This document shows, one piece after another, positions 15,001-18,000 of a DNA stretch of 64,000 bases (position 1 is its first letter; every line of letters begins with the position of its first letter). A program made the position numbers. This stretch comes from Escherichia coli (GTDB lineage: Bacteria; Pseudomonadota; Gammaproteobacteria; Enterobacterales; Enterobacteriaceae). The stretch lies in assembly GCF_051903065.1 (NCBI RefSeq), contig NZ_CP178438.1; one strand, written 5' to 3'.

Positions 15001-18000
15001 AATGGTCAGCAGGTTGAAACGGTGGGTATTCCAATCCACTGGGGCTTTGAGGGTGTCGCGCGTAAAGGTTATATCGCTAACACTCTGACGCCGAATGTCG
15101 GTGATGCAAACTCGCAAACGCCGGAATATAAAGCGTTCTTAGTCAACATCGAGAAGGCGTAAGGGGGCGAACAGATGGCTATGGAAACGCAGGACATTAT
15201 CAAAAGGTCCGCAACTAACTCCATCACGCCGCCTTCTCAGGTGCGTGATTACAAAGCAGAAGTCGCGAAACTTATCGACGTTTCCACCTGTATCGGTTGT
15301 AAAGCCTGTCAGGTGGCGTGTTCGGAGTGGAACGACATCCGTGATGAAGTGGGGCACTGCGTCGGGGTTTACGATAACCCCGCCGATCTGAGCGCCAAGT
15401 CCTGGACGGTGATGCGCTTTAGCGAAACCGAACAGAACGGCAAGCTGGAGTGGCTGATCCGTAAAGACGGCTGTATGCACTGTGAAGATCCGGGCTGCCT
15501 GAAGGCGTGCCCGTCTGCTGGTGCAATCATTCAGTACGCTAACGGGATTGTCGATTTCCAGTCGGAAAACTGCATCGGCTGTGGTTACTGCATTGCCGGG
15601 TGTCCGTTTAATATTCCGCGCCTCAACAAAGAGGATAACCGGGTATATAAATGCACGCTCTGCGTCGATCGCGTCAGCGTCGGCCAGGAACCGGCTTGTG
15701 TGAAAACCTGTCCGACCGGGGCTATCCACTTCGGCACCAAGAAGGAGATGCTGGAGCTAGCGGAACAGCGCGTGGCGAAACTGAAAGCGCGTGGTTACGA
15801 ACATGCTGGCGTCTACAACCCGGAAGGGGTCGGTGGTACGCACGTTATGTACGTGCTGCATCACGCCGATCAGCCGGAGCTGTATCACGGTCTGCCGAAA
15901 GATCCGAAGATCGACACCTCGGTAAGCCTGTGGAAAGGCGCGTTGAAACCGCTGGCAGCGGCTGGCTTTATTGCCACTTTTGCCGGGTTGATTTTCCACT
16001 ACATCGGTATTGGCCCGAATAAGGAAGTGGACGATGACGAGGAGGATCATCATGAGTAAGTCGAAAATGATTGTGCGCACCAAATTTATTGATCGCGCCT
16101 GTCACTGGACCGTGGTGATTTGCTTCTTCCTGGTGGCGCTGTCCGGGATTTCGTTCTTCTTCCCGACGCTGCAATGGCTGACGCAAACCTTCGGTACGCC
16201 GCAGATGGGACGCATTTTGCACCCGTTCTTCGGCATTGCGATTTTCGTCGCACTGATGTTTATGTTTGTGCGTTTTGTGCATCACAACATCCCGGATAAG
16301 AAAGATATTCCGTGGCTGTTAAACATTGTCGAAGTATTAAAAGGCAATGAGCACAAAGTGGCGGATGTCGGTAAGTACAACGCCGGGCAAAAGATGATGT
16401 TCTGGTCGATCATGAGCATGATTTTCGTGCTGTTGGTGACCGGGGTGATTATCTGGCGTCCGTACTTTGCGCAGTACTTCCCGATGCAGGTTGTCCGTTA
16501 TAGCCTGCTGATCCACGCGGCTGCCGGTATCATCCTGATCCACGCCATCCTGATCCATATGTATATGGCATTCTGGGTGAAAGGATCGATTAAAGGGATG
16601 ATCGAAGGGAAGGTGAGCCGTCGCTGGGCGAAGAAACACCATCCGCGCTGGTATCGTGAAATCGAGAAGGCAGAAGCGAAAAAAGAGAGTGAAGAAGGGA
16701 TATAATCTCTTTTGAACTTTAAGCTGAAAATGGCGCTGTAAAAGGCGCCATTTTCATATTGTAGACAACGTGGGCTTTGTTCATCCCGGATGCGTCGTGA
16801 ATGCCTTATCCGGCATGAAAACCCTTCAAATACAATAGATTGCAGTGAACGTGTAGGCCTGATAAGCGTAGCGCATCAGGCAATGTTGCGTTTGTCATCA
16901 GTTTCAAATGGCGCTGTAAAAGGCGCCATTTTTTATTGCGCAACCAGACGGCGTAATCGCGACACATCCACCGTTTTTTCAGCCTCTGCCAGACTCCAGG
17001 CGTTTTGCAGATTCAGCCACATTTGCGGCGAACTGCCGATCACCACGGAAAGTTTAATTGCCATTTCTGGCGTCAAAGCTGCTTTTCTGGTCAGCAATCG
17101 GCTTGCCGTTGAGGGAGCAATTTCCATTGCTCTGGCAAACTCGCGCAGGCTGACATTAAGTTCGTCCAGTGATTCCTGAATAATGTCCCCCGGGCGGGGA
17201 TGATTGGCCATTTTCATTAGTGTCTTTACTCTCAGTAGTGTTCCTTCACTGGGAACACTATCATTATTGTTCCTTCCTACGCAACAATAATCCATTTAGC
17301 CATTTCATGTTGGAGAGTGTGCGATGCTGCGACACCAGGACTGGCAGTCGCAGCAAAGGCCTCTTAGCGGCGGAAATCAATCACCATACGGCCACGGATT
17401 TTGCCTTCTTCCATCTCGGTAAAGATGGTGTTGATGTCCGCTAACGGACGCAGGGCGACTTTCGGCACCACTTTGCCTTCGGCCGCAAACTGGAAGGCTT
17501 CAGTTAGATCCTGGCGCGTGCCGACCGGCGAACCGACCACTTCAATGCCATCCAGCACAAGACGTGGGATATCCAGGCTCATAGACTCCGGCGGCAGACC
17601 GACAGCCACAACACGACCACCTGCACGGACTGCATCAACTGCCGAGTTAAACGCAGCTTTAGCTACTGCTGTTACCACCGCAGCGTGAGCGCCACCGGTT
17701 TTCTCCTGCACAATTTTGGCGGCGTCTTCGGTGCGTGAGTTAATCGCTAAATCTGCACCCATTTCGGTTGCCAGTTTTAACTGCTCATCATTGACATCAA
17801 TGGCGATCACTTTCGCGTTAAAGACATTCTTCGCGTATTGCAGGGCGAGGTTACCCAGACCGCCAAGACCGTAGATAGCAATCCACTGCCCGGGACGAAT
17901 TTTTGACAGCTTAACGGCTTTGTAGGTGGTGACCCCCGCACAGGTAATGCTGCTGGCCGCCGCCGAGTCCAGACCATCTGGCACTTTTACCGCGTAATCG

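What the first reader, a model, noticed from the sequence alone, without database searches (positions are those of the whole stretch)
16728..16934. Exact duplicate of a 26-nt terminator hairpin bracketing a BIME between fdnI and yddM
The sequence aaatggcgctgtaaaaggcgccattt occurs twice about 178 bp apart, with two REP palindromes between them. The first copy terminates fdnGHI; the second, with T6, abuts the yddM stop and can act bidirectionally. An identical duplicated terminator around a REP pair suggests a local duplication or REP-mediated rearrangement and gives redundant termination between convergent genes.
Basis: seen in the sequence. Interest (0 to 1): 0.35.

Follow-up and report, generated by a model that had tools for sequence, protein, structure and literature searches.

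The report
Terminator hairpin duplicated by BIME-1 insertion
A 151-bp mobile repeat (BIME-1) sits in the shared terminator of two convergent E. coli genes, flanked by two copies of that terminator hairpin; this footprint is common in the repeat family and lets the block expand or drop out between strains.

Summary
AAATGGCGCTGTAAAAGGCGCCATTTT (27 nt, one more than reported) occurs at 16728-16754 and 16906-16932, with none expected by chance.

The 151 bp between the copies are a complete BIME-1 (RIP/RIB) element: Y REP, IHF-type linker and Z1 REP, with imperfect inverted ends.

E. coli strains without the element, and Citrobacter-like outgroups, carry one hairpin. The repeat therefore behaves as a target duplication of the ancestral fdnI/yddM terminator.

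Across 5,426 E. coli genomes the locus holds 0 units (~45%, some occupied by IS200C), 1 unit (~38%) or 2 units (~17%, including K-12) of [hairpin + BIME-1]. Old left and right copies differ at about 5 positions. The perfect identity in this window is therefore secondary, from contraction of a two-unit allele or from gene conversion.

The pattern is general. In 20 of 39 independent BIME-1 loci the element is bracketed, exactly at its ends, by a duplicated locus-specific hairpin (null 0.9%). pitA-uspB and a dppA site also have filled and empty alleles.

K-12 Term-seq shows no 3' end at these hairpins and a Rho-dependent site further downstream.

The locus itself is ordinary. The family-wide hairpin-length duplication is the interesting part, and I could not find it in the papers I could read.

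The parts
16052..16705 (+). fdnI (formate dehydrogenase-N gamma subunit), last gene of fdnGHI; its stop lies 22 nt before hairpin copy 1
   Evidence: ORF. RefSeq annotation of identical and near-identical alleles.
16728..16754 (+). Hairpin copy 1 (left direct repeat, 27 nt). The stem extends to 16725-16756. It is followed by TTTT-CATATT, because the original T-run was cut off by the BIME-1 left end.
   Evidence: -22.1 kcal/mol on +, -18.7 on -. Not flagged as terminator-like.
16755..16905 (+). Complete BIME-1 (RIP/RIB) element, 151 bp
   Evidence: Matches the 153-position BIME-1 HMM end to end. Full-length relatives at about 83% identity occur at fepA-entD, pitA-uspB and gcd-cueO in every E. 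coli genome.
16755..16784 (+). BIME-1 left outer flank (CATATTGTAGACAAC...), an imperfect terminal inverted repeat with the right flank
   Evidence: Consensus of 79 distinct elements: 12 of the 15 terminal nt are complementary between the two ends, and the minimum-energy fold pairs the ends.
16785..16818 (+). Y-type REP palindrome (16785-16814) plus its tail. The family CTAC tetranucleotide is ATGA here (16815-16818).
   Evidence: Allele alignment: window and K-12 have CATGA where other fdnI alleles have CCTAC.
16819..16852 (+). L linker with an IHF-like site (ATACAATAGATTG, 2 mismatches to WATCAANNNNTTR)
   Evidence: Family copies have ATTCAATAGATTG. Binding was not tested.
16853..16881 (+). 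GTAG tetranucleotide (16853-16856) plus the Z1-type REP palindrome GCCTGATAAGCGTAGCGCATCAGGC
   Evidence: Sub-threshold Rfam naRNA4 hit (a REP-derived RNA).
16882..16905 (+). BIME-1 right outer flank (AATGTTGCGTTTGTCATCAGTTTC), inverted-repeat partner of the left flank
16906..16934 (+). Hairpin copy 2 (right direct repeat, 16906-16932) with the original run of six T, which ends at 16934
   Evidence: (terminator-like, 10 pairs, T-rich tail).
16933..17217 (-). yddM (orphan HigA-family antitoxin / HTH regulator). Its stop codon overlaps the T-run of copy 2.
   Evidence: ORF. The RefSeq CDS is 285 nt.

Best explanation
The 27-nt repeat is the ancestral bidirectional intrinsic-terminator hairpin shared by the convergent fdnGHI operon and yddM. 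It was duplicated when a 151-bp BIME-1 element inserted at it, giving hairpin-BIME-hairpin (P-B-P). The element consists of a Y REP, an IHF-type linker and a Z1 REP, with imperfect inverted ends.

Shown: (1) the insert is a complete member of a dispersed family; (2) alleles without it carry exactly one hairpin; (3) the same architecture flanks about half of independent BIME-1 loci, and the duplicated segment is the stem-loop itself; (4) non-hairpin targets show 5-7 bp duplications.

Inferred: the insertion reaction cuts at both feet of the target hairpin, perhaps as a short stagger measured across an extruded hairpin, and gap filling then duplicates it. The enzyme is unknown.

Once present, the two hairpins act as direct repeats for slippage or unequal recombination. 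The [hairpin+BIME] unit therefore varies between 0, 1 and 2 copies among E. coli strains. The two copies in this window are identical because the allele is a secondary product: contraction of a two-unit allele, or gene conversion.

Likely consequence, inferred only: each convergent transcript meets a proximal hairpin with a shortened U-tract and a distal one with the original tract. Part of the transcription would then run through the BIME-1 and give overlapping 3' UTRs.
For: Empty-site alleles. ZH063 and 2013C-3252 have a single hairpin, gaaaATGGCGCtttaagaaGCGCCATttttttattgcg, with fdnI and yddM otherwise collinear.

Outgroups. A contig whose FdnI is 94% identical has the single hairpin ATGGCGCTACatcgGTAGCGCCATttttttt after fdnI. 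Citrobacter koseri has a single AGCGCTAC/GTAGCGCT hairpin.

Insert is a full family member.

Population counts. 2,986 of 5,426 genomes carry at least one unit. 2,069 carry one unit. The difference, about 917, carry two units, as K-12 does.

Expansion and contraction footprints. K-12 and APEC O78 have L-B-M-B-R. Strain 300033 has M-B-R, with the M-specific GGCGTC, meaning the first unit was deleted. The window and O157:H7 have L-B-(M-type hairpin with the T-run of R). D9, A20 and E. albertii keep diverged L and R copies.

Generality. Of 39 distinct loci with complete BIME-1 ends, 20 have a left-versus-right flank alignment score of at least 20 (0.9% of 1,482 random pairings), and 18 score at least 30 (0.07%). 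Almost all repeats abut the element ends with no gap. In 17 of 21 repeats the duplicated segment is exactly a stem-loop. In an independently ascertained metagenome sample, 4 of 11 loci show the same.

Other filled and empty pairs. pitA-uspB: 1,940 genomes filled, the rest 173 bp shorter with one hairpin. dppA-side locus: 3,248 genomes filled, the rest 157 bp shorter with one GTATG(G).

Transcription. K-12 has a Rho termination region at 1551885(-) inside fdnI, and no curated 3' end at the hairpins.
Against: About 40% of BIME-1 loci (for example fepA-entD and gcd-cueO) have no flanking repeat. The duplication is therefore not obligatory, or it decays.

E. albertii carries the same insertion, sharing the GTAGAC variant. 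Some or many single-hairpin E. coli alleles may therefore be secondary precise deletions rather than never-occupied sites. The data do not decide this.

No known transposase chemistry predicts a duplication whose length follows the target hairpin. IS200/IS605-type Y1 enzymes such as RayT are described as giving no larger duplication, and DDE enzymes give fixed lengths (my own knowledge). The K-12 rayT gene is flanked by y/z2 REPs that lack the BIME-1 outer ends.

No 3'-end data exist for fdnGHI under inducing conditions.

The classical BIME papers (Gilson 1991, Boccard & Prentki 1993, Bachellier 1994, 1997 and 1999) could not be read. They may already describe flanking repeats.
Confidence: 0.8

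Rival explanations
1. A plain local tandem duplication (slippage) of a hairpin-containing segment, unrelated to mobility of the REP pair. The BIME was already there and a neighbouring stretch was copied.
For: Tandem duplication of the 178-bp unit does occur at this locus: K-12 has two units.
Against: The segment missing from empty alleles is exactly one complete family element plus one hairpin. The same element-bounded repeat, with different locus-specific hairpins, recurs at 20 of 39 independent loci. Two other loci have matching filled and empty alleles.
Confidence: 0.05
2. The doubled hairpin is kept by selection as a redundant or bidirectional double terminator that insulates fdnGHI from yddM.
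For: Both copies keep stable stems in all alleles, including diverged ones. Copy 2 is a canonical terminator-like site. Convergent genes need insulation.
Against: About 45% of E. coli genomes have a single hairpin and about 17% have three, so the count is not fixed. Left and right copies drift, at about 5 differences. In K-12, with three hairpins, minus-strand transcription still reaches a Rho-dependent site inside fdnI, and no Term-seq 3' end maps to the hairpins.
Confidence: 0.12
3. The hairpin travels with the element: [hairpin+BIME-1] is the mobile unit, and it integrates next to a similar resident hairpin by homology.
For: In Escherichia sp. MOD1-EC7003, arrays contain spacer hairpins (aggccgaacccggcct) that are foreign to the locus and equal the local terminator of another locus, L061.
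Against: At fdnI-yddM and pitA-uspB the flanking repeat equals or closely matches the sequence of the empty allele, and at the dppA site it equals it. The hairpin repeats differ between loci. Foreign spacers are explained more simply by gene conversion between BIME-1 copies that carries a B-P-B block.
Confidence: 0.04
4. Chance similarity or an assembly artefact.
For: None.
Against: Zero matches in shuffles. The same allele is present in independent complete genomes, including O157:H7.
Confidence: 0.01

Closest known systems
BIME-1, also called RIP or RIB (Gilson et al. 1991; Oppenheim et al. 1993; Boccard & Prentki 1993; as summarised in Ton-Hoang et al. 2012, PMC3333891)
   Same: A Y and a Z1 REP in inverted orientation, separated by the conserved long L linker with an IHF-type site. 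[quoted passage not shown] Whole-element presence/absence polymorphism between strains; 'excisions of a whole BIME-1' in Bachellier 1997 is recalled from the abstract, not read here.
   Different: BIME-1 is described as occurring as single copies. Here the [hairpin+BIME-1] unit is tandemly doubled in about 17% of E. coli genomes and reaches 7 or more copies in another Escherichia species. I did not find the hairpin-length flanking duplication or the inverted outer ends in the papers I could read. [quoted passage not shown]
REPIN / RAYT (TnpA-REP, rayT = yafM) system (Nunvar 2010; Bertels & Rainey 2011; Ton-Hoang 2012)
   Same: Two inverted REPs that form a long hairpin. GTAG/CTAC tags. A candidate non-autonomous element mobilised in trans by a single-copy Y1 transposase.
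   Different: IS200/IS605-type chemistry makes no larger target duplication, whereas these elements carry 5-30 bp flanking repeats. The K-12 rayT flanks lack the BIME-1 outer ends. In this window and in K-12 the Y REP has lost its CTAC tag, so recent changes at this locus are better ascribed to host recombination.
Bacterial MITEs (terminal inverted repeats plus target-site duplication; Delihas 2011 review, PMC3184786)
   Same: About 150 bp, imperfect terminal inverted repeats, flanking direct repeats, filled and empty sites between strains, and a fold into one long hairpin.
   Different: The duplication length is not fixed but follows the target structure: 5-7 bp at ordinary DNA and the whole stem-loop (16-30 bp) at hairpins. 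No cognate transposase with matching ends was found. The review states that REPs 'do not display MITE signatures'.
Deletion or amplification between short direct repeats that flank a palindrome (replication slippage, for example precise excision of Tn10/Tn5; Touzain et al. 2010, PMC2884548)
   Same: 27-bp direct repeats 151 bp apart around a strongly self-pairing insert. Both deletion and duplication products are seen in the population.
   Different: Nothing unusual. This is the ordinary host process proposed for the 0/1/2-unit variation, and it was not measured here.
Bidirectional intrinsic terminators between convergent genes (for example Ju, Li & Liu 2019; from my own knowledge, not read here)
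   Same: The ancestral single hairpin, with an A-run on one side and a T-run on the other, sits between two convergent stop codons.
   Different: The insertion splits the A-run and T-run onto different copies, so neither copy retains both original tracts.

Membership tests
BIME-1 (RIP/RIB) | One Y and one Z1 REP/PU in inverted orientation | tested here: met
   Y at 16785-16814 and Z1 at 16857-16881. The element aligns end to end with the fepA-entD, pitA-uspB and gcd-cueO copies and with the HMM.
BIME-1 (RIP/RIB) | Conserved long L linker carrying an IHF site | tested here: inconclusive
   The linker aligns with the family. The site ATACAATAGATTG has 2 mismatches to WATCAANNNNTTR, against 1 in other copies. 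IHF binding cannot be tested here.
BIME-1 (RIP/RIB) | [quoted passage not shown] | tested here: met
   It lies between the fdnI stop (16705) and the yddM stop (16933).
BIME-1 (RIP/RIB) | Occurs as a single copy per locus (Ton-Hoang 2012) | tested here: met
   The window has one copy. The K-12-type alleles of the same locus have two, so this feature does not hold for the locus as a whole.
REPIN mobilised by RAYT | GTAG/CTAC tetranucleotide on both REPs (needed for TnpA-REP activity according to Ton-Hoang 2012) | tested here: not met
   GTAG is present before Z1 (16853-16856). The CTAC after Y is ATGA in the window and in K-12. Other alleles of the locus keep CTAC.
REPIN mobilised by RAYT | Insertion without target duplication (IS200/IS605-type chemistry) | tested here: not met
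   27-bp flanking repeat here; 5-30 bp repeats at 24 of 39 loci.
MITE | Terminal inverted repeats | tested here: met
   12 of the 15 terminal nt are complementary in the consensus of 79 elements.
MITE | Target-site duplication of a length characteristic of the family | tested here: not met
   Duplications are present but their length varies from 5 to 30 bp and tracks the target hairpin.
MITE | Related autonomous element or transposase with the same ends | tested here: inconclusive
   The rayT flanks lack these ends. There was no scan of an IS database.
Intrinsic (Rho-independent) terminator | GC-rich stem-loop followed by a U-tract | tested here: met
   Copy 2 has 10 pairs followed by six T, then ATT. 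Copy 1 has the same stem but the tail UUUUCAUAUU, and the scan did not call it.
Intrinsic (Rho-independent) terminator | Transcript 3' ends mapping to the U-tract | tested here: inconclusive
   K-12 Term-seq in aerobic LB and M63 lists no 3' end at these hairpins. A Rho termination region lies at 1551885(-), downstream of them. fdnGHI is not expected to be expressed in those conditions (my own knowledge). No data exist for this strain.

The most novel reading that the evidence does not exclude
BIME-1 is a MITE-like element that integrates preferentially at intrinsic-terminator hairpins. The integration reaction duplicates the entire target stem-loop, giving a target duplication whose length is set by DNA structure: 5-7 bp on ordinary DNA and 16-30 bp on hairpins. 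That differs from the duplication-free IS200/IS605 model currently assumed for REP/RAYT elements. Each insertion would also create a pair of direct repeats, which then drives tandem amplification and precise loss of terminator-embedded repeats.
Probability: 0.35. Interest if true: 0.7.

Novelty: new variant of a known kind. Interest (0 to 1): 0.5.

Why it matters
How REP/BIME elements spread is still unresolved. RayT cleaves REPs in vitro, but no insertion footprint has been defined in the papers I could read, and a review states that REPs lack MITE signatures.

This analysis supplies:
- a reproducible footprint (element ends abutting a duplicated target hairpin);
- natural filled and empty allele pairs at three loci;
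- a target rule (terminator stem-loops).

Together these make the insertion chemistry testable.

For this locus it also explains why E. coli strains differ by 0, 1 or 2 copies of a 178-bp block between fdnI and yddM. It shows that K-12 carries three terminator hairpins there. It predicts strain-dependent 3' UTR length and antisense overlap for a respiratory operon and an orphan antitoxin gene.

Tried and rejected
1. Older BIME literature. Bachellier 1997 (PubMed id), Boccard & Prentki 1993, Gilson 1991 and Clement 1999 are not held. Prior description of the flanking repeats therefore cannot be excluded.

2. Other 3'-end datasets. Dar & Sorek 2018 has no held supplements, and the SMRT-Cappable-seq supplements do not mention fdnI, yddM or adhP.

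3. zapB-side locus (L037) as a further filled/empty pair. No RefSeq E. coli genome carries the filled allele and the left flank differs, so it was uninformative.

4. Metagenome scan anchored on the left end. It was dominated by two loci and gave only 11 distinct loci. The result is consistent (4 of 11 with long repeats) but adds little.

5. rayT flanks as the source of the BIME-1 ends. Only the y/z2 REP cores match, not the outer flanks.

6. Rfam. Only sub-threshold REP-related hits (ES036/CssrF, naRNA4) and noise.

7. Exact counts of allele classes from junction queries. This was rejected because the tool joins overlapping pieces. Instead I used the difference between two coverage counts, plus evenly spaced rows.

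8. Origin of the empty hairpin. I considered that it is a left/right chimera left by excision. Its loop (TTTAAGAAGCGCC) is not a simple chimera of the extant left and right copies, but this does not settle polarity.
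Full report
**1. Observation**

The sequence aaatggcgctgtaaaaggcgccattt is present exactly twice in the window, at 16728-16753 and 16906-16931. No match appeared in 100 dinucleotide-preserving shuffles, even with three mismatches allowed. The exact repeat is 27 nt (one further T) with a start-to-start spacing of 178.

fdnI ends at 16705 on the + strand. yddM runs on the - strand and its stop codon (16933-16935) overlaps the T-run after copy 2.

Both copies fold as stable hairpins on both strands. A consensus scan calls only copy 2 terminator-like on the + strand.

**2. What lies between the copies**

The 151 bp at 16755-16905 contain five parts:
- a left flank, 16755-16784;
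- a Y-type REP, 16785-16814;
- a linker with an IHF-like site, 16819-16852;
- GTAG plus a Z1-type REP, 16853-16881;
- a right flank, 16882-16905.

A blastn search with these 151 bp against 5,426 complete E. coli genomes found a place covering at least 80% of the query in 5,425 genomes. In genomes that lack the element at fdnI-yddM, the best match is a 146-152 bp element at about 83% identity at fepA-entD, pitA-uspB or gcd-cueO. The alignment runs from the first to the last base of the insert.

The insert is therefore a complete copy of a dispersed element with the anatomy of BIME-1 (RIP/RIB), as described in Ton-Hoang et al. 2012. A consensus of 79 distinct full-length copies is 152 nt. Its ends, CAGATTGTTGACAAA... 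and ...TTTGTCATCATTCTC, are imperfect inverted repeats (12 of 15), and the predicted fold pairs the two ends.

**3. The locus is polymorphic, and the single hairpin is ancestral**

Megablast of the region against the E. coli collection showed discrete length classes, and representatives were read.

| Allele | Example strain | Structure |
|---|---|---|
| Empty | ZH063, 2013C-3252 | one hairpin, gaaaATGGCGCtttaagaaGCGCCATtttttt, no BIME |
| One unit | window, O157:H7 | hairpin-BIME-hairpin |
| Two units | K-12, APEC O78 | three hairpins and two BIME-1 |
| First hairpin lost | LR-31 | BIME-1 and right hairpin only |
| IS200C | YDC107 | IS200C just after the T-run of the single hairpin |

Counts:
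- 2,986 genomes cover at least 80% of a 651-nt query, meaning at least one unit.
- With a 531-nt query, two-unit alleles fall to 71% coverage, and 2,069 genomes pass 80%, meaning one unit.
- About 917 genomes (17%) therefore carry two units, about 38% carry one, and about 45% carry none.
- Evenly spaced rows put about 5-8% of records in the IS200C class.

Outside Escherichia, a contig encoding an FdnI 94% identical has one homologous hairpin (ATGGCGCTACatcgGTAGCGCCATttttttt) after fdnI and no BIME. Citrobacter koseri also has a single hairpin. The polarity is therefore: single hairpin first, then P-B-P.

E. albertii and a divergent 'E. coli' carry the same insertion, sharing the GTAGAC variant at the left end, with diverged left and right hairpins. 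The insertion is therefore old. Some single-hairpin E. coli alleles may be secondary precise deletions, and I could not decide this.

**4. Why the two copies are identical here**

In D9, A20, DA61218 and E. albertii the left copy (CTGTAA[A/G]AGGCGCC) and the right copy (CTTTATAA[A/G]GTGCC) differ at about 5 positions.

K-12 and APEC O78 have a middle copy of the left type, with a private GGCGTC. Strain 300033 has that middle copy as its left hairpin, which means the first unit of a two-unit allele was deleted. The window and O157:H7 have a left-type hairpin joined to the T-run of the right copy, and the BIME end CAGTTTC typical of the first unit.

The perfect identity is thus best read as a contraction of a two-unit allele, or as gene conversion. 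It is not a fresh duplication. This step is inferred from allele comparison. The underlying process, slippage or unequal exchange between 27-bp repeats around a self-pairing insert, is established biology (for example Touzain et al. 2010) but was not measured here.

**5. The architecture is general for BIME-1**

A pattern scan of one genome per species returned 67 stretches from Escherichia and Pseudocitrobacter. An HMM located the elements.

- Among 39 distinct loci with complete element ends, 20 have a left-flank versus right-flank local alignment score of at least 20, against 0.9% of 1,482 random left/right pairings. Eighteen score at least 30, against 0.07%. Nearly all repeats start and end exactly at the element boundaries.
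- The repeats are locus-specific GC-rich hairpins, and the right-hand copy is usually followed by a T-run.
- In 17 of 21 repeats the duplicated segment is precisely the stem-loop.
- Shorter junction-exact repeats of 5-7 bp occur at non-hairpin targets.

Two further loci have filled and empty alleles in E. coli:
- pitA-uspB: 1,940 genomes filled; the empty allele is 173 bp shorter and has one hairpin.
- A dppA-side site: 3,248 genomes filled; the empty allele is 157 bp shorter and has one GTATG(G).

A metagenome sample anchored on the left end gave 4 of 11 loci with long repeats.

In Escherichia sp. MOD1-EC7003 the [BIME-1 + hairpin] unit forms arrays of 4 to at least 7 copies. One locus shows 1, 2 and at least 7 units in three species.

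About 40% of loci, including fepA-entD and gcd-cueO, show no repeat.

**6. Mechanism**

Shown: the repeat has the form of a target-site duplication whose length follows the target structure.

Inferred: cleavage at both feet of the hairpin on opposite strands, followed by gap filling. One possibility is a short fixed stagger measured across the base of an extruded hairpin.

The enzyme is unknown:
- IS200/IS605-type Y1 transposases, the family of RayT, are described as making no larger duplications.
- The K-12 rayT gene is flanked by y/z2 REPs without the BIME-1 outer ends.
- In this window the Y REP has lost its CTAC tag.

**7. Function**

After the insertion, the copy met first by each transcript has a shortened U-tract (fdnI: UUUUCAUAUU; yddM: UUUGAAAC). 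The distal copy keeps the original tract (U6 for fdnI; UUUUCAGCUU for yddM).

I therefore expect partial read-through of the proximal hairpin and 3' UTRs that include the BIME-1 and overlap in antisense.

The only relevant data are for K-12, which has three hairpins (Adams et al. 2021; K-12 coordinates):
- There is no curated 3' end at the hairpins in aerobic LB or M63.
- There is a 3' end inside the 5' part of yddM.
- There is a Rho termination region at 1551885(-), 106 nt inside fdnI. Minus-strand transcription therefore crosses the whole spacer.

fdnGHI is induced anaerobically with nitrate (my own knowledge), so the + strand is untested.

**8. Comparison with what is known, and novelty**

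The element is a member of BIME-1. Presence/absence of whole BIME-1 copies between strains was reported in 1997; I recall this from the abstract and did not read the paper here.

Three points do not match the descriptions I could read:
- BIME-1 is said to 'occur as single copies'.
- REPs are said to 'not display MITE signatures'.
- The Y1 family is said to make no larger duplications.

The classical BIME papers were not available. I therefore rate the family-wide hairpin duplication as probably under-described rather than certainly new.

**9. Verdict**

- The locus itself is an ordinary, if nicely documented, BIME-1 insertion/deletion and copy-number polymorphism.
- The general footprint is the valuable lead.

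Noticed in passing
L004:540-1270 (E. coli YDC107); equivalent to window ~16934: In about 5-8% of E. coli genomes an IS200C (a Y1-transposase IS) is inserted immediately after the T-run of the single, empty-type fdnI/yddM hairpin. This is 2 nt from where the BIME-1 duplication ends. Two different hairpin-associated elements have therefore used the same terminator foot.
   Followed up: partly
L003:510-530 (E. coli LR-31); equivalent to window 16719-16754: This allele has lost the left hairpin and 9 nt upstream of it (tttgaacttt|catattg) while keeping the BIME-1 and the right hairpin. It shows how BIME-1 copies can come to lack a flanking repeat.
   Followed up: partly
L055, L057/L058, L063, L064, L066, L073, L075 (Escherichia sp. 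MOD1-EC7003): Tandem arrays of 4 to at least 7 full BIME-1 copies are separated by 8-32 nt hairpin spacers. Some spacers (aggccgaacccggcct) recur at several loci and equal the local terminator of L061, which suggests conversion of B-P-B blocks between loci. This contradicts the rule that BIME-1 is single-copy.
   Followed up: partly
L054 (184-bp contig of a Bacillus coahuilensis m4-4 assembly): The contig carries the K-12-type middle hairpin (GGCGTC) and BIME-1 ends of the fdnI-yddM spacer. It is almost certainly E. coli K-12 contamination in that assembly.
   Followed up: no
window 16933-17363; L002:840-1073; L079:2929-3491: yddM is an orphan HigA-family antitoxin. An outgroup contig has an intact higB-higA pair. 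ZH063 keeps a frameshifted RelE/ParE-type toxin gene upstream. The window and K-12 have no toxin gene before adhP.
   Followed up: partly
window 17235-17261: A near-perfect palindrome, GTAGTGTTCC...GGAACACTAT, lies just upstream of the annotated yddM start. It was flagged by the terminator scan but looks like an operator for the HTH protein.
   Followed up: no
window ~17187 (the position equivalent to K-12 1552652, minus strand): Adams et al. 2021 list a strong Term-seq 3' end about 30 nt inside the yddM ORF, next to the CCCCGCCCGGGGG hairpin. This is a possible ORF-internal attenuator or processing site.
   Followed up: no
window 16818-16896: There are sub-threshold Rfam hits to ES036/CssrF (E = 7e-4, 30.7 bits against a gathering score of 37.6) on the BIME-1 linker, and to naRNA4 on the Z1 REP. 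At least one Rfam 'sRNA' family may in fact be a BIME-1 linker.
   Followed up: no
L090:1130-1340 and 1830-2060 (K-12 rayT flanks): rayT is flanked by y/z2 REP pairs (BIME-2-like) with no trace of the BIME-1 outer inverted ends. The link between RayT and BIME-1 mobility is therefore not evident from sequence.
   Followed up: partly
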